In this document: positions 259-9,281 of the stretch, piece after piece | How the letters are laid out: the number at the start of each line of letters is the position of its first letter | How positions within the stretch are numbered: the stretch's first letter is position 1 | From: a virus | Lineage: Duplodnaviria; Heunggongvirae; Uroviricota; Caudoviricetes | Direction: 5' to 3' (one strand) | DNA: 9,281 bases | IMG/VR virus record: IMGVR_UViG_3300029219_000180 | Program-made: the position numbers and the translations under genes | The notes under the pieces: generated by a model | The model's input: only the letters and a program-made list of their open reading frames with translations | The model's database searches: none | Told to the model about the DNA's origin: nothing

Positions 259-1725
259 CTATGCGCCTGGATTGGGTTCGATCATACTCAGCGTTTTTGC
301 TATTTTCTTAATCTCATCATCATTATCCAAAAAAGAGGCGTCTTTTATTACCACAGTACGCTCTTCTTGTAATAGCTCACCTATTTTTTCTTCTATAAAA
401 TCTAATGTTGGCATTATAATCTGGATGTCTCGAGAAAAAGTAGTTTTTGCATCTTCTATACTGTTGAATCCATTATGTATATGAGTGAATATTCTCTTTT
501 TAAACTGTATGTCTTCTGGATTTCCCACTAACTGACTGAAATCTCCTTTCATAACTCTTTCGCTTGTTTCAAAGAGCTGTATTGCTATCGAGTCGATTAA
601 TTCCTTTTTGGACAGAGATGCTTGTTCATAAAATTTGGTGACTAACTCTGTTGGCAACTTTCTTGAGACGACTTTAATGGACAGTCTCTGAAATAGGTAA
701 GGTGCCACCACGCCCACACTGAAAGGGTGAATCCTCCCTGGATTTAATAATTTTATTGTGACGTTTTCAAAAACTAGCTCATTGATTTTACTATTTATGA
801 ATTCCATTAAATACTTATCTAATGATAATGTTACCGACGCAACCGCTTCTATCACTTGTTTAAATGGCTCGCCTTTCAAGGATTTAAAAAACTCTTTGTT
901 ATAACCAAAGAAATCCACAAAACCTAAATTTATTCGATTTTCTTCTTTAGTATTTGAAATGCGAATTTGAAGTTGTTTTAAGTCTTCATCGGTCAAGTAT
1001 TTTAAACCATAGTCATCAAGCGCGTTACGTATAACTTTATCTGCAGATTCTAAGTCGATTACAGTTTTTACATTAAAAAACAATGATAACAATGAATCAT
1101 ACTTATGAACTCGCAAGGTTAAATCTGTTGCATTTGATGCGGTTACATTTATCCGTCTCAAAAGATCAATAACTTTACTAATTGGTAGGCTGTTTTCAAA
1201 AATTTTGAATGACTCGTATTCAGATACAACATCTTTTATATACTTACTGATAGTATCAGACTTTATTTCCACCTCAACTTCGGTTGAGTAAGAATGAATT
1301 AGTGAGTTTGTAGTTTCAGCGATGTCATTTGATACATACAACTTATATTCGAAACAATCAGGAGCGGGAAGCAAACTATTATCAATAATGGAAAACAATA
1401 AAAATTTAATTATTTCTCTTAATGCTTGCGGTCTAGTTATTCTACCTTGCATTTTTTTACATTGTATTAAACCACTTACAACACCGTTATGGTATAGCAC
1501 GCAGTCGCGTCCTCTTTCAGAAACTCCTTGCATTAAAGATATTGAGGATATATTTTTATGCTTTCCATCTTCAATTTCGTTCTTTACTAACAAATAACAT
1601 AGCAACTCAAATTCTCGATCACCTAATTCTGAAAAGGGAAGCAATCCGATACCAGAATCTATAGTCCATGGTCTATATCCTGATTGAGCCTCGATATTAA
1701 TTTGTTCGTCACTGATTTTTTTCAC
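259..1725 (-). CDS. Hypothetical protein with N-terminal Mrr-cat / PD-(D/E)xK-like (DUF4297-like) nuclease motif and uncharacterised C-terminal ~380 aa; candidate defence effector
   Basis: 488-codon ORF, by far the longest in the AT-rich block (~30% GC in sampled lines). Start codon is GTG (plus-strand cac at 1723-1725) preceded by Shine-Dalgarno AAGGAGA with 5-nt spacing. N-terminal residues 38-108 show the pattern FELLCYLL ... GVSERGRD (D74) ... LIQCKK (Q88, K90) ... RPQALREI, which matches the D...(E/Q)xK arrangement of Mrr-type restriction endonuclease catalytic domains. Family assignment is from motif recognition only. Confidence 0.8.
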   Translation of the reverse strand: MKKISDEQINIEAQSGYRPWTIDSGIGLLPFSELGDREFELLCYLLVKNEIEDGKHKNISSISLMQGVSERGRDCVLYHNGVVSGLIQCKKMQGRITRPQALREIIKFLLFSIIDNSLLPAPDCFEYKLYVSNDIAETTNSLIHSYSTEVEVEIKSDTISKYIKDVVSEYESFKIFENSLPISKVIDLLRRINVTASNATDLTLRVHKYDSLLSLFFNVKTVIDLESADKVIRNALDDYGLKYLTDEDLKQLQIRISNTKEENRINLGFVDFFGYNKEFFKSLKGEPFKQVIEAVASVTLSLDKYLMEFINSKINELVFENVTIKLLNPGRIHPFSVGVVAPYLFQRLSIKVVSRKLPTELVTKFYEQASLSKKELIDSIAIQLFETSERVMKGDFSQLVGNPEDIQFKKRIFTHIHNGFNSIEDAKTTFSRDIQIIMPTLDFIEEKIGELLQEERTVVIKDASFLDNDDEIKKIAKTLSMIEPNPGA

Positions 1726-2868: not shown

Positions 2869-3738
<870 letters not shown>

Positions 3739-3761: not shown

Positions 3762-3800
3762 CGCAGCACGATCTTCTTGCATACGACGTGCTACGGTTTC
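3762..3800. repeat. Copy B of the hairpin-containing direct repeat; candidate bidirectional terminator between convergent GIY-YIG and pin genes
   Basis: cgcagcacg-atcttcttgcatacga-cgtgctacg followed by gtttc. Lies between the GIY-YIG stop (3736-3738) and the pin stop (3799-3801), overlapping the latter. Confidence 0.65.
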
Positions 3801-4353
3801 ATTTATCTCCGACCGGAAACTTCTTATACAGTGTCGATATACCAACATCATAGATGATCGCCACCTTCTGGCGAGGAACGCCTGATGCAATTAATCGCCC
3901 GGCCTGCGCCCATTGTTCTGGTGTAAGTTTGGGACGACGTCCACCAATTCGTCCCTGTGCGCGAGCAGCTTCCAGTCCAGCTTTTGTTCGTTCAACAATC
4001 AGTTCTCGTTCCATTTCAGCCAGGGCACCCATGACATGAAAAAAGAAACGGCCCATTGGGGTACTGGTATCAATACTGTCAGTCAGGCTTCGGAAATTCA
4101 CGCCACGCTGGCGCAACTCTTCTATCAGCGTAACAAGATGCCGCATACTGCGCCCTAACCTGTCCAGCTTCCAGACAACCAGAGTGTCACCTGCCGATAA
4201 TGTCCTGAGCAGTTTTTTCAGTCCGGGCCTTTCGGACTTCGTACCGCTTATCTTGTCTTCAAAAATCAGTTCACATCCTACACAGTTCAACGCATTACGT
4301 TGTAGATCGGTGTTCTGGTCATTTGTTGATACGCGTACATAGCCAATAAGCAT
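3799..4353 (-). CDS. pin: Pin/Gin/Hin-family DNA invertase (serine recombinase)
   Basis: Protein from the internal Met ([18 protein letters not shown]...) has the resolvase/invertase N-terminal catalytic motif (YVRVST, catalytic Ser) and a C-terminal HTH ([41 protein letters not shown]). It is near-identical in pattern to E. coli e14 PinE as recalled. The ORF track extends to 4389, but the conserved start is the ATG at 4353. Confidence 0.93.
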
Positions 4354-4379
4354 GGTGGATCTCCCTGACAAAAGCAGGA

Positions 4380-4754
4380 ATGATGCCATTTGCTCGTTAT
4401 TTCTGCATTTTCATAAACGTTGGTTTGGGAGAAGCGGCAAAACGGAATGTGGGAACAGGGGAAAATCAGATACCTGATATGTCATCATATGCATCAGGTT
4501 CAGGCTGGCGAAAAATGCCAGATGGTTCAATTGAACAGTGGGGACGAATTAGTTTTCCTGGTGAACACGGGCCTGTATCCGCCAATGTTTCATTCCCGAT
4601 TCCATTTACACAGACACCGGGCATTGTAATTGTGTGCGATGGTGGTTTCGGGGGCGGGAATATGTGGGGGGCGACCAACTGGAGCACTACCGGCTTCATA
4701 GCTCACTGCAATTATGGTCTTGAAGGTGGTGCGTTTTTCGCTAAGGGCTGGTAA
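4380..4754 (+). CDS. Tail-fibre protein C-terminal variable segment (gene fragment lacking the constant N-terminal part; probably not expressed as annotated)
   Basis: Contains the motif [14 protein letters not shown], typical of phage tail-fibre receptor-binding C-termini (recalled W-x-K-L-P-x-G-x-I-x-Q-W-G pattern), and a Gly-rich tip. The reading frame runs through the gix-like site, as for invertible tail-fibre segments. No upstream constant region in the window. Stop overlaps the next start (TAATG). Confidence 0.55.
4408..4433. other. gix/hix-like 26-bp invertase crossover site
   Basis: TTTTCATAAACGTTGGTTTGGGAGAA matches the recalled Hin/Gin site consensus TTnTCnnAAACCnnGGTTTnnGAnAA at every specified position but one (C to G at position 12). 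Located about 55 bp from the pin start and inside the 5' end of the tail-fibre segment reading frame, as in Mu/P1/e14 invertible segments. Confidence 0.6.
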
Positions 4755-5251
4755 TGATGAAATATCTGTACGTAAACAACCTGGCATATCCTTACGAACT
4801 TCAGTCTCTTTATGTTGAAAAAGGTGAATGGCCTGAAGAAAAAGGTGTTGATATAGACGAAGTAATTTTCAGGGAATATTTCTATGATACACCACCAGAA
4901 GGAAAATACAGATGTGTCGGAGAGGATGGACTGCCTGCATGGGCAGACATCCCCGCGCAACTGAAACGCCTTCTTCCTGACTATAAACGGATGGAAGAAA
5001 AAATAGACGCCGTAATCCGTGAGAAATACGGGTTACCCCCGGTTATGAGCACGCCCGTGAAATATGCCGATCTCATCATGCTGGCAACCGAACGCCGCGA
5101 TCTCGGGCTTGATGATGGCTCTTTCTGGCCTCTACTGGAAGGTATCCCAGCAACAGAGATGTTCAAAGTTATTCCACTGTCGCCAGGCCATGCCTACGGG
5201 ATGTTTATGGAACGTTTTAACGAGTTATCGGAGTTACGCAAATGCGCATGA
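4754..5251 (+). CDS. Hypothetical phage protein (positionally a tail-fibre assembly/chaperone candidate)
   Basis: 165-aa ORF translationally coupled to the tail-fibre segment (TAATG) with an AAGGG SD-like sequence upstream. Sequence does not show the conserved Tfa C-terminus I recall, so the function is by position only. Confidence 0.55.
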   Translation: MMKYLYVNNLAYPYELQSLYVEKGEWPEEKGVDIDEVIFREYFYDTPPEGKYRCVGEDGLPAWADIPAQLKRLLPDYKRMEEKIDAVIREKYGLPPVMSTPVKYADLIMLATERRDLGLDDGSFWPLLEGIPATEMFKVIPLSPGHAYGMFMERFNELSELRKCA

Positions 5252-5909: not shown

Positions 5910-6259
5910 TGGAACCATACAGCCTCACGCTAGATGAGGCCTGTCATTTTCTCAAGATATCCAGACCGACTGCCATTAACTGGATACGCACAGGGCGTCT
6001 GCAGGCAACACGCAAAGATCCCACTAAGAATAAATCTCCTTACCTCACAACACGACAAGCCTGCATTGCGGCGCTTCAGTCTCCGCTGCATACTGTCCAG
6101 GTGAGCGCGGGTGATGGCATAACAGAGGAAAGAAAATGTCACTCTTCCGCAGAGGTGAAATATGGTACGCCAGTTTCACATTGCCGAACGGTAAAAGATT
6201 TAAACAGTCTCTTGGAACAAAGGACAAAAGGCAGGCGACAGAACTCCATGACAAGCTAA
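5909..6259 (+). CDS. xis: Excisionase / AlpA-family DNA-binding protein (P22 Xis-like)
   Basis: From the ATG at 5909 (GAGGTGA SD upstream): [31 protein letters not shown]..., an HTH typical of excisionases, located immediately upstream of int. Its 3' end overlaps int by 124 nt in another frame. Confidence 0.75.
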
Positions 6260-7299
6260 AGGCTGAAGCATGGCGGGTCAGCAAACTTGGTGAAATTCCT
6301 GATATAACGTTCGAGGAAGCGTGTGTCAGGTGGCTTGAAGAGAAAGCACATAAAAAATCACTGGACGATGACAAAAGCCGGATCGGATTCTGGCTTCAAC
6401 ATTTCGCAGGAATGCAACTAAGAGACATTACTGAATCAAAAATTTATTCAGCAATGCAGAAAATGACGAACCGGCGTCATGAGGAAAACTGGAAACTCAG
6501 GGCAGAAGCATGCAGAAAAAAAGGGAAACCTGTTCCAGAATACACGCCAAAACCAGCGTCCGTTGCAACGAAGGCTACGCATCTTTCATTTATAAAGGCC
6601 CTGCTAAGAGCCGCAGAGCGTGAATGGAAAATGCTGGATAAGGCACCAATTATTAAAGTGCCTCAACCAAAGAATAAACGGATCCGCTGGCTGGAGCCTC
6701 ATGAAGCACAAAGGCTGATTGATGAATGTCCGGAGCCATTAAAGTCTGTTGTTGAATTTGCACTTGCAACAGGCTTAAGACGCTCGAACATCATCAACCT
6801 TGAATGGCAACAAATAGACATGCAGCGCCGGGTGGCATGGATAAACCCGGAAGAGAGTAAATCAAACCGCGCAATTGGCGTTGCGCTGAATGATACTGCA
6901 TGTCGCGTATTGAAAAAACAAATCGGGAATCATCACCGTTGGGTATTTGTGTATAAGGAAAGCTGTACCAAACCAGACGGAACGAAAGCGCCAACAGTCA
7001 GGAAGATGCGGTATGACGCAAACATAGCCTGGAAAGCGGCGCTGAGACGAGCAGGTATTGATGATTTCAGATTTCACGACTTGAGACACACCTGGGCAAG
7101 TTGGCTGGTTCAAGCCGGAGTCCCGTTATCAGTGTTACAGGAAATGGGAGGCTGGGAGTCTATCGAAATGGTTCGTCGATATGCTCACCTCGCACCTAAT
7201 CACCTTACCGAACACGCACGGCAAATAGACTCGATTCTGAACCCATCGGTCCCAAATTTGTCCCAGTCAAGAAATAAGGAAGGTACTAATGATGTGTAA
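6136..7299 (+). CDS. int: Tyrosine-type phage integrase (P22-like)
   Basis: N-terminus [34 protein letters not shown] is typical of P22-family integrases. Catalytic residues present: [14 protein letters not shown] (Arg), [10 protein letters not shown] (H-x-x-R), MVRRYAHL (Tyr). GAGGAAAG SD upstream. A tRNA-Thr att core follows directly. Confidence 0.93.
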
Positions 7300-7313
7300 C
7301 TTATTGATTTAAA

Positions 7314-7362
7314 TGGTGCCGATAATAGGAGTCGAACCTACGACCTTCGCATTACGAATGCG
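7314..7362 (-). other. Attachment-site core: 3'-terminal 49 nt of tRNA-Thr(CGU) (partial tRNA, not a functional gene)
   Basis: Reverse complement reads CGCATTCGTAATGCGAAGGTCGTAGGTTCGACTCCTATTATCGGCACCA: anticodon loop with CGT, T-arm GGTTCGACTCC and acceptor 3' strand with CCA. The flanking sequence at 7363-7390 does not encode the D-arm or 5' acceptor strand, so the tRNA is incomplete. Confidence 0.8.
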
Positions 7363-7450
7363 TAAATTGATCTTGTAAAATCAATACCTATCGAATTTAA
7401 ATGGATTTTTTGCCACAATATTGCCACAGTTCGTTAGGAATCAGACAGAA

Positions 7451-8524
7451 ATGGCGACTATACGCAAACGTGGTAACTACCAATGGGAAGCTCAAATCCG
7501 TAAACGTGGTTTTCCCTCTCAAACCAAAACCTTTAACACCAAAGTAGAAGCAGAAGCTTGGGCCAAAATGATCGAGTCAGAAATGGCGAGAGGAGTTTGG
7601 CTTAGCCGCAGCGAAGCGGAATCTACGACATTGTATGAAGCCCTAACGCGATATGAAAAAGAGATTGTTCCCGACAAAAAAGGGGCAGTGCAAGACCGAT
7701 CATTGGTGCGGATACTAAAAGGCACTCAGCTGGCGAAAAACTATATGGCCAGCATCAGGAGTGCCGATGTCGCCAAGCTGAGAGATGAATGGTTGAAAAT
7801 CTATGCTCCTGCAACCGTTTTAAGGCGTTTGGCCTTACTTTCTCATGTATTCAATGTTTCGCGGAAAGAATGGGGCATGGAGAGCCTGCTGAACCCCGTA
7901 GAGGCCATTCGCAAACCCCAACCCAAGAACTCCAGGACCAGACGCCTGGAAGCGCTGCCTGTAGTTTCTGAGAAAACCGGTGTTACGTCAGGAAAGCAAA
8001 TAGCCAACGAGATCGAACATATCATCGCCGCAACACATTCATTAGTATTGCCAGCAATCATTCTTCTGGCGTTAGAGACAGCCATGCGCCGTAGCGAAAT
8101 CGCAGAGCTTCGATGGCGCTTTATCGATCTTGATCGGCGAGTTGCACATCTGCCGGATACTAAGAATGGTAATGCCCGCGATGTCCCTTTATCAACGAAA
8201 GCCATTACGATACTGTCCAGTCTCAAGGAACATTCTAAGCCAGCTGCTGATAAGGTTTTTGATATGCGTGCAGACGCGATTACCCGAGCTTTTGACCGAG
8301 CTGTAAAACGAGCCAGAGAACGATACGAGAAAACAAACTCATTATGTGATGAATCTTTCCTTAAAGATTTAAGATTTCATGACCTTCGACATGAAGCAAC
8401 TTCTCGACTTGCTGAAATTTTCCCTATGCATGAACTAACCAAAATTACAGGACATAAAGATCCAAGAATGCTAATGCGGTATTATCATCCAAAAGCTGAA
8501 GATTTGGCGTTAAAGTTGAAATAA
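7451..8524 (+). CDS. Tyrosine-type site-specific recombinase/integrase (second, distinct family)
   Basis: From the ATG at 7451 (the ORF-track M at 7421 is a TTG): MATIRKRGNYQWEAQIRKRG N-terminus typical of island integrases. Catalytic residues present: ETAMRRSEIAELRW (Arg), HDLRHEATSRL (H-x-x-R), RMLMRYYH (Tyr). Unrelated in sequence to the upstream P22-like int. Confidence 0.88.
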   Translation: MATIRKRGNYQWEAQIRKRGFPSQTKTFNTKVEAEAWAKMIESEMARGVWLSRSEAESTTLYEALTRYEKEIVPDKKGAVQDRSLVRILKGTQLAKNYMASIRSADVAKLRDEWLKIYAPATVLRRLALLSHVFNVSRKEWGMESLLNPVEAIRKPQPKNSRTRRLEALPVVSEKTGVTSGKQIANEIEHIIAATHSLVLPAIILLALETAMRRSEIAELRWRFIDLDRRVAHLPDTKNGNARDVPLSTKAITILSSLKEHSKPAADKVFDMRADAITRAFDRAVKRARERYEKTNSLCDESFLKDLRFHDLRHEATSRLAEIFPMHELTKITGHKDPRMLMRYYHPKAEDLALKLK

Positions 8525-8533
8525 GGACGTTGT

Positions 8534-9223
8534 ATGGATTATAAAAATAAGTTAGTTGATGCATCACCAAAATTAAACAACCCTCAACTATTGGCTATAA
8601 TATACTTAATACCTTTTGGATACTTGATTGTAGAAAACCCATTATGGCTAGAAAATATATACATTGCCGCTCCAATTTTCCTATCATCTATAGCTTTATT
8701 AACCAGTGTATACATAGGATATCGTGATTTATTAAATAAAGTATTTAATAATGCAGTAGTTAAATGGGGCGTAACTGGCTTTACATATTCCGTATGCTTA
8801 TGGATCGCAAAGTTTAAGCTTGACATAGCTTATGGTATAGTCCCAGAAAACCTTAATTACTCGACATTAGCTTATGCTTTCATGCTCTCATTTCCAATAG
8901 GGGCAATGATTTGTGCAATTACAGTCTATATATACATATTTTTGCGAGATGTATCCCCAGCAAAAATAGTAATATCCTCTATGATTTCAGTATATATTGG
9001 AAGCTTGGCTCAACATCATATACAGGTGAACAATCTTCCTGAAAAAATAATATTAATAGGACTTATAATTATGGTCCCCTATAACATGGTCAATTTAGCT
9101 AGTTCATTAGTTATTAAAAGGAAATTTAATTTTAATCGTTTAGTATCAGGCTTATCCCTTTTTGCTGTGTCAGTTGCTCTTTTTATTATTAGCATGACAG
9201 CGGTAATGACTCCAACTTATTGA
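8534..9223 (+). CDS. Polytopic inner-membrane protein of unknown function (229 aa), very AT-rich
   Basis: AAGGA SD 6 nt upstream of the ATG, 9 bp after the integrase stop. About five or six hydrophobic helix-length segments (e.g. LLAIIYLIPFGYLIV, IYIAAPIFLSSIALLTSVYIGY, AMICAITVYIYIFL, IILIGLIIMVPY, LSLFAVSVALFIISMTAV). About 23% GC in a sampled line. Confidence 0.7.
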   Translation: MDYKNKLVDASPKLNNPQLLAIIYLIPFGYLIVENPLWLENIYIAAPIFLSSIALLTSVYIGYRDLLNKVFNNAVVKWGVTGFTYSVCLWIAKFKLDIAYGIVPENLNYSTLAYAFMLSFPIGAMICAITVYIYIFLRDVSPAKIVISSMISVYIGSLAQHHIQVNNLPEKIILIGLIIMVPYNMVNLASSLVIKRKFNFNRLVSGLSLFAVSVALFIISMTAVMTPTY

Positions 9224-9281
9224 TAGTGTTTTATGTTCAGATAATGCCCGATGACTTTGTCATGCAGCTCCACCGATTTTG

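What the first reader, a model, noticed from the sequence alone, without database searches (positions are those of the whole stretch)
7451..9223. Second tyrosine recombinase tightly linked (9-bp gap) to a very AT-rich polytopic membrane protein
Seen in sequence: the recombinase stop and the membrane-protein SD/ATG are separated by only 9 bp, implying co-transcription. The membrane protein is ~23% GC in sampled sequence, far from the recombinase composition, and has five or six predicted helices with no recognisable family. Inference: this is the first cargo gene of a second island. An integrase-coupled membrane protein might be an abortive-infection or superinfection-exclusion effector, but the window ends 58 bp after its stop, so any further system components are unseen.
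Basis: partly seen in the sequence, partly recalled or inferred. Interest (0 to 1): 0.45.

Follow-up and report, generated by a model that had tools for sequence, protein, structure and literature searches.

The report
Integrase-linked membrane gene, cut by IS1
The second integrase and the AT-rich membrane gene behind it are the edge of a small mobilizable island inserted at the thrW tRNA gene of E. coli. The membrane gene sits in a swappable slot that may hold an exclusion or defence gene, but in this window an IS1 insertion has cut it short.

Summary
int2 (7451-8524) is an intact tyrosine recombinase, and a membrane-protein ORF starts 9 bp after its stop. That ORF is truncated. IS1 begins at 9202, so the last 7 codons and the stop come from IS1. 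Intact copies are 296 aa: 7 TM helices plus a conserved C-terminal domain with two cysteines, predicted to be periplasmic. GC is 31.7%, not 23%.

Both genes belong to a ~12-kb relaxase-less element (TraJ, TrbJ/K/L) bounded by 50-bp thrW repeats. It was catalogued in Salmonella as StmGI_0323 and resembles GIsul2/PIME elements.

The gene after int is a swappable slot. Between islands with 93%-identical integrases, the membrane protein is only 22-26% identical, or is replaced by an unrelated 2-TM coiled-coil protein.

The family is tiny: 18 clusters in 1.84 billion proteins, PHROG 26661, no Pfam match and no fold match. Outside the island it occurs alone, at the P2 orf30 moron locus or next to R-M or TIR genes. 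The "VbhA antitoxin" label on its small partner is not supported.

Most likely function (inferred, ~0.4): an inner-membrane exclusion or defence factor. Moderate interest.

The parts
7313..7362 (-). 50-bp copy of the 3' end of tRNA-Thr gene thrW. It is the att direct repeat and the boundary between the left prophage and the thrW island. It is not a functional tRNA.
   Evidence: The 49-nt thrW 3' suffix is found on the minus strand at 7314-7362 (the thrW sequence was recalled from memory). The same 50 bp is repeated perfectly at the intact thrW 11,989 bp away in NCTC9088. ARAGORN finds no tRNA. The Rfam tRNA score is 22.3, below the gathering score of 29. Prophage matches in other genomes end at 7359.
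7363..7450 (+). Leader between the att repeat and int2. It holds a TTGAT..ATCAA hairpin (7367-7384) and two TTGCCACA direct repeats (7410-7417, 7421-7428), which are candidate recombinase-binding or regulatory sites.
   Evidence: Read directly from the sequence. The consensus scan finds no sigma-70-like promoter here. Function not tested.
7451..8524 (+). int2: tyrosine recombinase (357 aa), the integrase of the thrW mobilizable island.
   Evidence: PF00589, E 1.5e-26. Catalytic motifs are present. It is 99% identical to the integrase at the same place in intact islands and occurs in 94-107 of 5426 complete E. coli genomes, always on the chromosome.
8523..8533 (+). Junction: the AAGGA Shine-Dalgarno sequence overlaps the int2 stop, and a 9-bp gap precedes the membrane-gene ATG.
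   Evidence: The spacing is conserved in 36 of 36 island loci.
8534..9201 (+). Native part (codons 1-222 and two bases of codon 223) of the 7-TM inner-membrane protein gene (slot type A, PHROG 26661). It is truncated here and has lost residues 223-296, including the conserved C-terminal domain with two cysteines.
   Evidence: Identical to intact 296-aa copies up to 9201. TM prediction and AF2 model with pLDDT 78.5. Conserved D238, C245, Y254 and C262 lie beyond the break. dN/dS is 0.24.
9202..9281 (-). Terminal 80 bp of an IS1 element (inverted repeat GGTAATGACTCCAACTTATTGATAGTG...). It supplies the last 7 codons and the TGA stop of the reported ORF.
   Evidence: Exact match to the IS1 end (recalled from memory) at 9202-9281. 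An IS1A transposase is annotated immediately after the same truncated ORF in strain H1. This end of the query matches 5414 of 5426 genomes at a median of 11 places each.

Best explanation
SHOWN. Window 7313-9281 is the integrase end of a ~12-kb relaxase-less integrative mobilizable element. It is inserted in the 3' end of thrW, in tandem with a prophage that used the same site.

In intact copies the element reads: att repeat, int, a slot gene (here a 296-aa 7-TM protein), a 75-aa soluble protein whose gene overlaps by 14 bp, a bidirectional terminator, then on the other strand a 70-aa ORF, trbL, a trbK-like gene, trbJ and traJ(nikA), a weak HTH gene, a HigA-like gene, variable defence cargo (NACHT, Gabija-like, GmrSD/HEPN and others), and intact thrW.

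The position right after int is a recombination-swapped slot. It always holds AT-rich (29-32% GC) genes for membrane-anchored proteins. Most are very divergent alleles of this one 7-TM family, with or without the small partner.

In this window IS1 has cut the gene after codon 222. That removes its most conserved domain, so this copy is probably inactive.

INFERRED. The protein has its N-terminus in the cytoplasm and its C-terminus in the periplasm. Its invariant residues cluster on the periplasmic face, in the loop KxKLNxxYGIxPExLNYS and in a small beta domain with two conserved cysteines.

I propose that it is made at a low constitutive level together with int. There it would act as an inner-membrane gatekeeper that blocks DNA arriving from outside, either a phage genome or a competing element. 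This would be superinfection or entry exclusion, or an equivalent membrane-based defence that benefits the element's host. The small cytoplasmic partner would be a regulator or assembly factor.

The confidence figure of 0.4 refers to this function. The anatomy is about 0.95 certain.
For: Anatomy:
- Island gene order and direct repeats.
- IS1 truncation.
- The same island was described in Salmonella as StmGI_0323: PMC5575072.

Slot:
- Between two islands, int is 92.7% identical, TrbJ 82% and TrbL 72%, but the membrane protein only 26%.
- Nucleotide identity falls from ~85% to ~40% exactly at the int stop and recovers at the 70-aa gene.
- Other occupants are a 315-aa allele (22% identical) with a 66-aa partner, a 309-aa allele alone, and an unrelated 465-aa 2-TM coiled-coil protein.

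It is a real, constrained gene:
- dN/dS is 0.24.
- Copies 84-100% identical occur across at least 10 enterobacterial genera.

Pointers to exclusion or defence:
- Distant homologues stand alone at the orf30 moron locus between gpS and gpV of P2-like prophages, on the strand opposite the late genes. That locus is a recognised site of horizontally acquired genes (PMC3091744, PMC6823313).
- Other homologues lie next to a NotI-type R-M system with an AAA_15 ATPase and next to a TIR protein.
- The island's other cargo is anti-phage.
- In a related PIME element (PIME1MmNCTC12028), an accessory region between int and the regulatory module carries a restriction-modification system (bioRxiv 10.64898/2026.01.12.698999).

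It is not a T4SS part taken from plasmids: only 1 weak hit in 72,556 plasmids.

Topology and periplasmic conservation.
Against: - There is no experimental or homology link to any known exclusion or defence protein. PADLOC, Pfam and NCBIfam give nothing. Foldseek against PDB and BFVD gives nothing, with best E 0.16-0.36 and TM below 0.26.
- No homologue was found in 50,697 sequenced phage genomes.
- Conserved polar residues on the periplasmic face would suit an enzyme as well as a binding surface.
- The closely related alleles show purifying selection, not positive selection.
- One homologue lies between housekeeping genes (ychF-budA) with no mobile-element context.
- Co-transcription with int and constitutive expression are inferred only. 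No promoter was identified.
Confidence: 0.4

Rival explanations
1. Toxin-antitoxin or abortive-infection module. The 7-TM protein would be a membrane-damaging toxin held in check by the small cytoplasmic 'VbhA-family' protein. The pair would stabilise the island (addiction) or kill infected cells.
For: RefSeq labels the partner 'antitoxin VbhA family protein'. The two genes overlap by 14 bp. The partner also accompanies a 22%-identical allele and stays 67% identical itself. The partner is found only in this pairing.
Against: Family members occur without any partner in the 309-aa island allele, in P2-like prophages and at standalone sites. A toxin that needs an antitoxin should not. The VbhA label fails testing: Pfam VbhA E 0.16 (12.4 bits against a cut-off of 25.9), and no VbhA chain appears in a profile search of the PDB. 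The inhibitory (S/T)xxxE(G/N) motif reads S-L-F-L-S-(S/G) (with my own alignment to VbhA from memory). No Fic gene is nearby. The IS1-truncated gene is found without the partner in several genomes, which would be expected whether or not it is toxic.
Confidence: 0.15
2. Transfer or establishment accessory of the island. The membrane protein would work with the island's TrbJ/TrbK/TrbL to remodel the helper IncP-type mating pore, or would help the incoming island establish itself. That would explain its expression with int.
For: It holds a fixed position in the int operon in 36 of 36 island loci. The island carries mating-pore subunits thought to subvert helper plasmids (PMC5704250). The protein is a polytopic inner-membrane protein, like TrbL/VirB6.
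Against: It is absent from conjugative plasmids, with 1 weak hit in 72,556. It is present as a lone moron in P2-like prophages and at non-conjugative sites. In about 20 E. coli islands the slot instead holds an unrelated 2-TM coiled-coil protein, so the island backbone does not need this family. It is disrupted or partial in about a quarter of the E. coli genomes that carry it.
Confidence: 0.12
3. Lysogenic-conversion enzyme. A periplasm-facing membrane enzyme would modify LPS, O-antigen, peptidoglycan or lipids, and so change phage receptors or host fitness.
For: The invariant polar or aromatic residues (N97, Y100, Y109, D238, Y254) and two cysteines are all predicted to be periplasmic. Prophage morons often encode envelope-modifying membrane enzymes (general knowledge).
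Against: There is no sequence or fold similarity to GT-C glycosyltransferases, acyltransferases, Wzy/WaaL or any other solved membrane enzyme. Seven TM helices plus a ~70-aa domain is small for those classes. No partner genes such as gtrAB are present.
Confidence: 0.12
4. Hitch-hiking AT-rich ORF with no selected function, and in this window simply a pseudogene.
For: This copy is cut by IS1. 18 of the 72 E. coli genomes that carry the gene have only part of it. The family is very small.
Against: dN/dS is 0.24 over the whole length. Length and motifs are conserved down to 18-26% identity across Gamma- and Betaproteobacteria. The AF2 model becomes confident once distant homologues are added.
Confidence: 0.05

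Closest known systems
StmGI_0323, a thrW genomic island of Salmonella Typhimurium (PMC5575072)
   Same: Same insertion site (thrW). Same gene list: HigA, TraJ, TrbJ, a 57-aa ORF, TrbL, a 70-aa ORF, a hypothetical, a 'putative membrane protein' (ORF13) and a 'shufflon-specific recombinase' (ORF14). A Salmonella locus with a 96%-identical membrane protein was recovered here.
   Different: That paper only lists the ORFs. It assigns no function and does not mention slot variation. The window's copy is cut by IS1 and lies in tandem with a prophage.
GIsul2 / IncP island / PIME family of IncP-dependent integrative mobilizable elements (PMC5704250; bioRxiv 10.64898/2026.01.12.698999)
   Same: An integrase at one end, TraJ and TrbJ-TrbK-TrbL without a full T4SS, large defence-rich accessory regions, and in one characterised PIME an accessory region next to int.
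   Different: PIMEs are defined by int + alpA + replicase + trbJ/trbL, and members of different subfamilies use the attB next to guaA. This island has no replicase, only a weak HTH_17 candidate in place of alpA, a different integrase and thrW as its site. Mobilisation by an IncP helper has not been tested for it.
Inner-membrane superinfection or entry-exclusion proteins (P22 SieA, T4 Imm, HK97 gp15, F TraS, SXT Eex), recalled from general knowledge
   Same: They are encoded by a resident mobile element, located in the inner membrane, usually single genes, allelically diverse, and expressed in the resident state. The gene here sits at a prophage moron locus and at the island's int slot.
   Different: No detectable sequence or fold relationship. 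Seven TM helices plus a periplasmic two-cysteine domain is larger than those proteins. The function has not been tested.
P2 orf30 variable locus between tail genes S and V
   Same: Two distant homologues (33-36% identical to the window's type) occupy exactly this locus in P2-like prophages, as AT-rich genes. The locus is a recognised site of horizontally acquired genes.
   Different: P2's own orf30 is a 261-bp ORF. No family member was found in 50,697 deposited phage genomes.
VbhA antitoxin of the VbhT Fic toxin (the label given to the small partner gene)
   Same: Small helical cytoplasmic protein with a G-E-L-T-x-E-E-like segment. RefSeq names it 'VbhA family'.
   Different: Below Pfam threshold. 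Not found in a PDB profile search. The inhibitory Glu-Gly is replaced by Ser-Ser/Gly. No Fic partner. A weak SHOCT-like hit scores at least as well.

Membership tests
Tyrosine recombinase / phage integrase (PF00589), for int2 | Catalytic domain match above the Pfam threshold | tested here: met
   93.7 bits against a cut-off of 27.1, E 1.5e-26, profile positions 6-170 of 172.
Tyrosine recombinase / phage integrase (PF00589), for int2 | Catalytic R..HxxR..H..Y residues present | tested here: met
   R213 (AMRRSE), H310/R313 (HDLRH), H335 (GHKD) and Y344/Y345 (RYYH), read from the translation. Assignment is by motif, not by structure.
Integrated element bounded by att direct repeats at a tRNA gene | Perfect direct repeat of the tRNA 3' end at both ends, with int next to one of them | tested here: met
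   50-bp perfect repeat, 11,989 bp apart, in NCTC9088. The same repeat lies at window 7313-7362. The far end is outside the window.
Relaxase-less IME of the GIsul2 type (TrbJ/K/L carriers) | TrbJ, a TrbK-position small lipoprotein and TrbL, plus a relaxosome accessory factor, with no relaxase, coupling protein or full T4SS | tested here: met
   TrbL (PF04610), NikA-like (E 4e-24), TrbJ (RefSeq annotation; weak PF07996 hit) and a 57-aa ORF with a signal peptide and a Cys-rich end. The 12-kb island has no other transfer genes. All of this lies outside the window.
PIME family (bioRxiv 2026.01.12.698999) | Core set int + alpA + replicase + trbJ + trbL | tested here: not met
   The 12-kb island has no replicase gene. 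The only alpA-like candidate is an 89-aa ORF with HTH_17 at E 0.031, below threshold.
PIME family (bioRxiv 2026.01.12.698999) | Excision and mobilisation induced by an IncP helper plasmid | not testable with these tools
   Needs mating assays.
VbhA antitoxin family (small partner of the membrane protein) | Pfam VbhA match above threshold | tested here: not met
   12.4 bits against a cut-off of 25.9, E 0.16. No NCBIfam hit. A profile search of the PDB finds no VbhA chain even at E 10.
VbhA antitoxin family (small partner of the membrane protein) | Inhibitory (S/T)xxxE(G/N) motif and an adjacent Fic toxin | tested here: not met
   The invariant segment is A-S-L-F-L-S-(S/G)-K. No Fic gene lies in any of the island loci.
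Known anti-phage defence systems (PADLOC-DB v2) | Match of the membrane protein or its partner to a defence-system model | tested here: not met
   No hit at E<=1 for slot type A and its partner, and none at E<=0.1 for three distant homologues and the 465-aa slot variant.
Known exclusion or immunity protein families in Pfam and PHROGs | Profile match to an annotated Sie, Imm, TraS or TrbK-type family | tested here: not met
   No Pfam family for any of 22 members beyond scattered single hits at E>0.001. The only PHROG is 26661, of unknown function.
IS1 | Terminal inverted repeat and adjacent InsAB' transposase | tested here: met
   80 of 80 bp match the IS1 end at 9202-9281 (IS1 sequence recalled from memory). 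An IS1A transposase is annotated right after the identical junction in strain H1. The transposase itself lies beyond the window.

The most novel reading that the evidence does not exclude
The 7-TM protein, with its small SHOCT/VbhA-like partner, is a new family of membrane-based exclusion or anti-phage systems carried by mobile elements. Highly divergent alleles would be exchanged as cassettes at a dedicated integrase-adjacent slot of thrW mobilizable islands and at the P2 orf30 locus. It would act on the periplasmic side of the inner membrane to stop incoming DNA.
Probability: 0.3. Interest if true: 0.6.

Novelty: new member of a known kind. Interest (0 to 1): 0.35.

Why it matters
If the intact gene blocks phage or plasmid entry, it would add a compact membrane-acting system with no known relatives to the defence and exclusion repertoire. 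It would also mark the integrase-adjacent slot of these thrW islands, together with the P2 orf30 locus, as a place to look for more such genes. An example is the unrelated 465-aa 2-TM coiled-coil protein that occupies the same slot.

For annotation there are three concrete corrections:
- The 229-aa 'hypothetical protein' (WP_020244647-type) is an IS1 truncation product.
- The 'VbhA antitoxin' and 'tail tape measure' labels in this slot are unreliable.
- The 112-nt 'tRNA-Ser' next to int is an att remnant of thrW.

For this particular window the biology is ordinary: a decayed island edge.

Tried and rejected
- The first AF2 run, with only near-identical sequences, was unusable (pLDDT 42). Adding distant homologues raised it to 78.5.
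- The word-indexed search found only relatives >=84% identical. A second run with a profile added only one distant member.
- The scan of GTDB representative genomes returned only near-identical copies. The scan with the broad alignment failed because no stretch was conserved enough.
- Phage-genome searches with two family members found nothing.
- The idea that the protein is a dedicated, indispensable backbone gene of the island was rejected once an unrelated protein was found in the same slot.
- The idea that the small partner is a true VbhA antitoxin was rejected.
- The RefSeq 'tRNA-Ser' was rejected as a functional tRNA.
- No complete E. coli genome in the collection carries the whole window mosaic. 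I therefore could not see what lies beyond the IS1 in the source strain.
Full report
**What is in the window.** ORF listing and composition show two co-directional integrase genes. int1 lies at 6136-7299 and int2 at 7451-8524 (annotated start; a TTG at 7421 is also open). An AT-rich ORF follows at 8534-9223. int2 has a full Phage_integrase domain (E 1.5e-26) and the catalytic motifs R213, H310xxR313, H335 and Y344/345. Its TAA stop is followed by 9 bp (GGACGTTGT) and the ATG of the next ORF. An AAGGA Shine-Dalgarno sequence overlaps the stop. The consensus scan finds no promoter-like or terminator-like site between the two genes.

**Corrections to the observation.**
- The ORF's GC is 31.7%, against 45.7% for int2. 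23% is only the lowest 100-bp window.
- The ORF is not complete. From 9202 to the window end the sequence is the terminal 80 bp of IS1, and at exactly that point it departs from intact copies of the gene.
- In E. coli H1 the identical junction is followed by an annotated IS1A transposase.
- The last seven codons (VMTPTY and stop) are therefore IS1 sequence.
- Intact copies encode 296 aa (WP_001471079).
- Of the 72 complete E. coli genomes (out of 5426) that carry the gene, 54 have most of it. Several share this IS1 break.

**Where it sits.**
- Between int1 and int2, on the minus strand, lies a 49-nt copy of the 3' end of thrW (7314-7362; thrW sequence from memory).
- ARAGORN calls no tRNA. Rfam's tRNA model scores below threshold. 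RefSeq's 112-nt 'tRNA-Ser' or 'tRNA-Thr' at this place is therefore an att remnant, like ptwF in K-12 (my knowledge).
- Matches to the prophage on the left end at 7359 in other genomes.
- In strains without that prophage, the remnant abuts yagP/paoABCD.
- In NCTC9088 the same 50 bp is repeated perfectly 11,989 bp further on, in the intact thrW next to proA.
- Between the repeats lie: int, the 296-aa gene, a 75-aa gene overlapping it by 14 bp, a bidirectional terminator, then on the other strand a 70-aa ORF, trbL, a 57-aa ORF in the trbK position, trbJ and traJ/NikA-like, then a small weak-HTH ORF, a HigA-like gene and a NACHT protein.
- Other copies carry different cargo at the thrW-proximal end: a 960-aa DEAD helicase, an OLD-like ATPase with a UvrD helicase (Gabija-like), GmrSD + HEPN + a methylase, or Tn10.
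- Some copies have a second insertion point just after the small gene.
- This is the island listed in Salmonella Typhimurium as StmGI_0323, where the two genes are ORF14 'shufflon-specific recombinase' and ORF13 'putative membrane protein' (PMC5575072).
- It is of the relaxase-less TrbJ/K/L type discussed for GIsul2 (PMC5704250). It resembles the recently described IncP-dependent PIMEs, but it lacks their alpA/replicase core and uses thrW rather than the guaA-adjacent site that several PIME subfamilies share.

**The membrane protein.**
- Hydropathy with the positive-inside rule gives seven TM helices, N-terminus in the cytoplasm and C-terminus in the periplasm.
- AF2 with 22 diverse sequences gives a confident model (pLDDT 78.5, pTM 0.74). 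It has the same helices plus a small three-stranded C-terminal domain.
- The family is very small. The word-indexed search found only relatives >=84% identical, in Escherichia, Salmonella, Enterobacter, Klebsiella, Kosakonia and Cronobacter. Pantoea, Dickeya and Pectobacterium were added later.
- A full HMMER scan of 1.84 billion cluster representatives found just 18 proteins.
- Nearly invariant positions are K77-W78, T81, N97, Y100, I102 and Y109 (the loop KxKLNxxYGIxPExLNYS), and D238, C245, Y254 and C262 in the C-terminal domain. Except for K77, W78 and T81, which lie at the cytoplasmic start of TM3, these are predicted to be periplasmic. The two cysteines fit a disulfide.
- The IS1 break in the window removes the whole C-terminal domain.
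- There is no hit in Pfam, NCBIfam or PADLOC. All members match PHROG 26661, of unknown function.
- Foldseek against PDB and BFVD finds nothing.
- The gene is under purifying selection: dN/dS is 0.24 between the two close allele groups.

**Linkage to the integrase.**
- In all 36 island-type loci recovered, the integrase lies directly upstream, with the same 9-bp gap or a 10-bp gap.
- Comparing islands shows that the position is a slot. Between NCTC9088 and locus L039, the integrases are 92.7% identical, TrbJ 82%, NikA 79% and TrbL 72%, but the membrane proteins only 26%.
- Nucleotide identity drops from about 85% to about 40% exactly at the int stop. It recovers at the 70-aa gene.
- A survey of E. 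coli (int2 in 94-107 of 5426 genomes) gave five occupants:
  - A: 296 aa + 75 aa.
  - B: 295 aa + 72 aa, 85% identical to A.
  - C: 309 aa alone.
  - D: 315 aa, 22% identical to A, plus a 66-aa partner that is still 67% identical to A's partner.
  - E: an unrelated 465-aa protein with two N-terminal TM helices and a long coiled coil, mislabelled 'tail tape measure'.
- All occupants are 29-32% GC.
It is cargo in a dedicated, recombination-swapped slot that has so far been seen to hold only membrane-anchored proteins.

**Homologues outside the island.**
- Two are single AT-rich genes between gpS and gpV of P2-like prophages. In the locus where both flanks are visible, the gene lies on the strand opposite both. 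This is the orf30 locus, one of three recognised acquisition sites in P2-like phages (PMC3091744, PMC6823313).
- One lies beside a NotI-type R-M system and an AAA_15 ATPase.
- One lies beside a TIR protein on a Pantoea megaplasmid.
- One lies beside IS remnants in Advenella.
- One lies between ychF and budA.
- None of these has an integrase or the small partner next to it.
- The family is essentially absent from 72,556 plasmids and from 50,697 deposited phage genomes.

**The small partner.** It is found only next to this membrane gene. RefSeq calls it 'antitoxin VbhA family', but the label does not hold up. The Pfam VbhA match is far below threshold. A profile search of the PDB finds no VbhA. 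The inhibitory SxxxE(G/N) motif reads S-L-F-L-S-(S/G), and no Fic gene is nearby. A sub-threshold SHOCT-like hit recurs in both partner types.

**Interpretation.**
- Shown: the anatomy, the IS1 truncation, the island identity and the slot behaviour.
- Inferred: the function.
- Several features point to a membrane-level exclusion or defence role that benefits the resident element's host, at roughly 0.4. These are the periplasmic placement of the conserved residues, occurrence as a lone moron in prophages, neighbourhoods rich in defence genes, cassette-like allele replacement, and absence from conjugative plasmids.
- Rivals are:
  - a toxin-antitoxin or Abi pair, weakened by partner-less homologues and the failed VbhA test;
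  - a transfer accessory, weakened by the prophage and standalone contexts and by the unrelated occupant of the slot;
  - a periplasm-facing envelope-modifying enzyme, not excluded;
  - a functionless hitch-hiker, weakened by dN/dS and deep conservation.
- In this window the copy is most likely inactive. In strains sharing the junction, the rest of the island is gone or rearranged.

**Verdict.** The finding is real and was partly mis-measured. It is the decayed edge of a previously catalogued kind of mobilizable island. It carries an orphan membrane-protein family of unknown but probably defensive or exclusion function. Interest is moderate (0.35). The most useful outcomes are a testable candidate gene pair, a newly recognised hypervariable integrase-adjacent slot, and several annotation corrections.

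Noticed in passing
window 2914-3738 (+): A 274-aa GIY-YIG protein matches the single-gene anti-phage system PD-T4-3 over its full length (PADLOC E 2.7e-140; Pfam LEM-3_GIY-YIG). It lies inside the prophage to the left of int1.
   Followed up: partly
window 3799-5251: A Pin/Gin-type serine invertase (196 aa, Resolvase + HTH_7) on the minus strand lies next to a gp53-like tail-fibre C-terminal fragment and a tail-fibre assembly gene. This is a tail-fibre inversion (host-range switch) module of the left prophage.
   Followed up: partly
window 259-1725 (-): An AT-rich (33% GC) 488-aa ORF has no Pfam family and only a weak PADLOC LmuA-like hit (E 0.004). It may be another defence cargo gene of the prophage.
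   Followed up: no
window 7314-7425 (-), and the same place in L001, L002, L042, L046-L049: RefSeq annotates a 112-nt 'tRNA-Ser' (once 'tRNA-Thr') here. It is the displaced 3' half of thrW fused to island sequence. ARAGORN finds nothing and Rfam's tRNA score is below threshold.
   Followed up: yes
window 7410-7417 and 7421-7428; 7367-7384: Two TTGCCACA direct repeats and a TTGAT..ATCAA hairpin lie in the 88-bp leader between the att repeat and int2. They could be recombinase arm sites or an operator.
   Followed up: no
L046 11540-12937 and L049 5092-6489 (E. coli HKUOPY1 and 300081): In about 20 E. coli genomes the slot after int2 holds an unrelated 465-aa protein with two N-terminal TM helices, a long coiled coil and an acidic C-terminus. 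It is annotated 'phage tail tape measure protein' but has no Pfam or PADLOC hit. It is another uncharacterised membrane-anchored candidate.
   Followed up: partly
L009, L010, L016, L021, L025 (between the small gene and the 70-aa ORF): Cargo of 2-8 kb is inserted right after the small partner gene, at the convergent terminator. In Salmonella it is an MFS transporter/dehydrogenase cluster. This is a second cargo insertion point of the island.
   Followed up: no
L042 11152-14091; L005 15822-18589; L039 13823-16656: The thrW-proximal end of the island carries different anti-phage cargo in different strains: a Schlafen/NACHT STAND protein, an OLD-family ATPase plus UvrD helicase (Gabija-like), or GmrSD + HEPN + a DNA methylase.
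   Followed up: partly
L042 vs L048 (small partner genes): The small partner stays 67% identical between slot types A and D, while the membrane proteins they accompany are only 22% identical. This asymmetry is unexplained.
   Followed up: no
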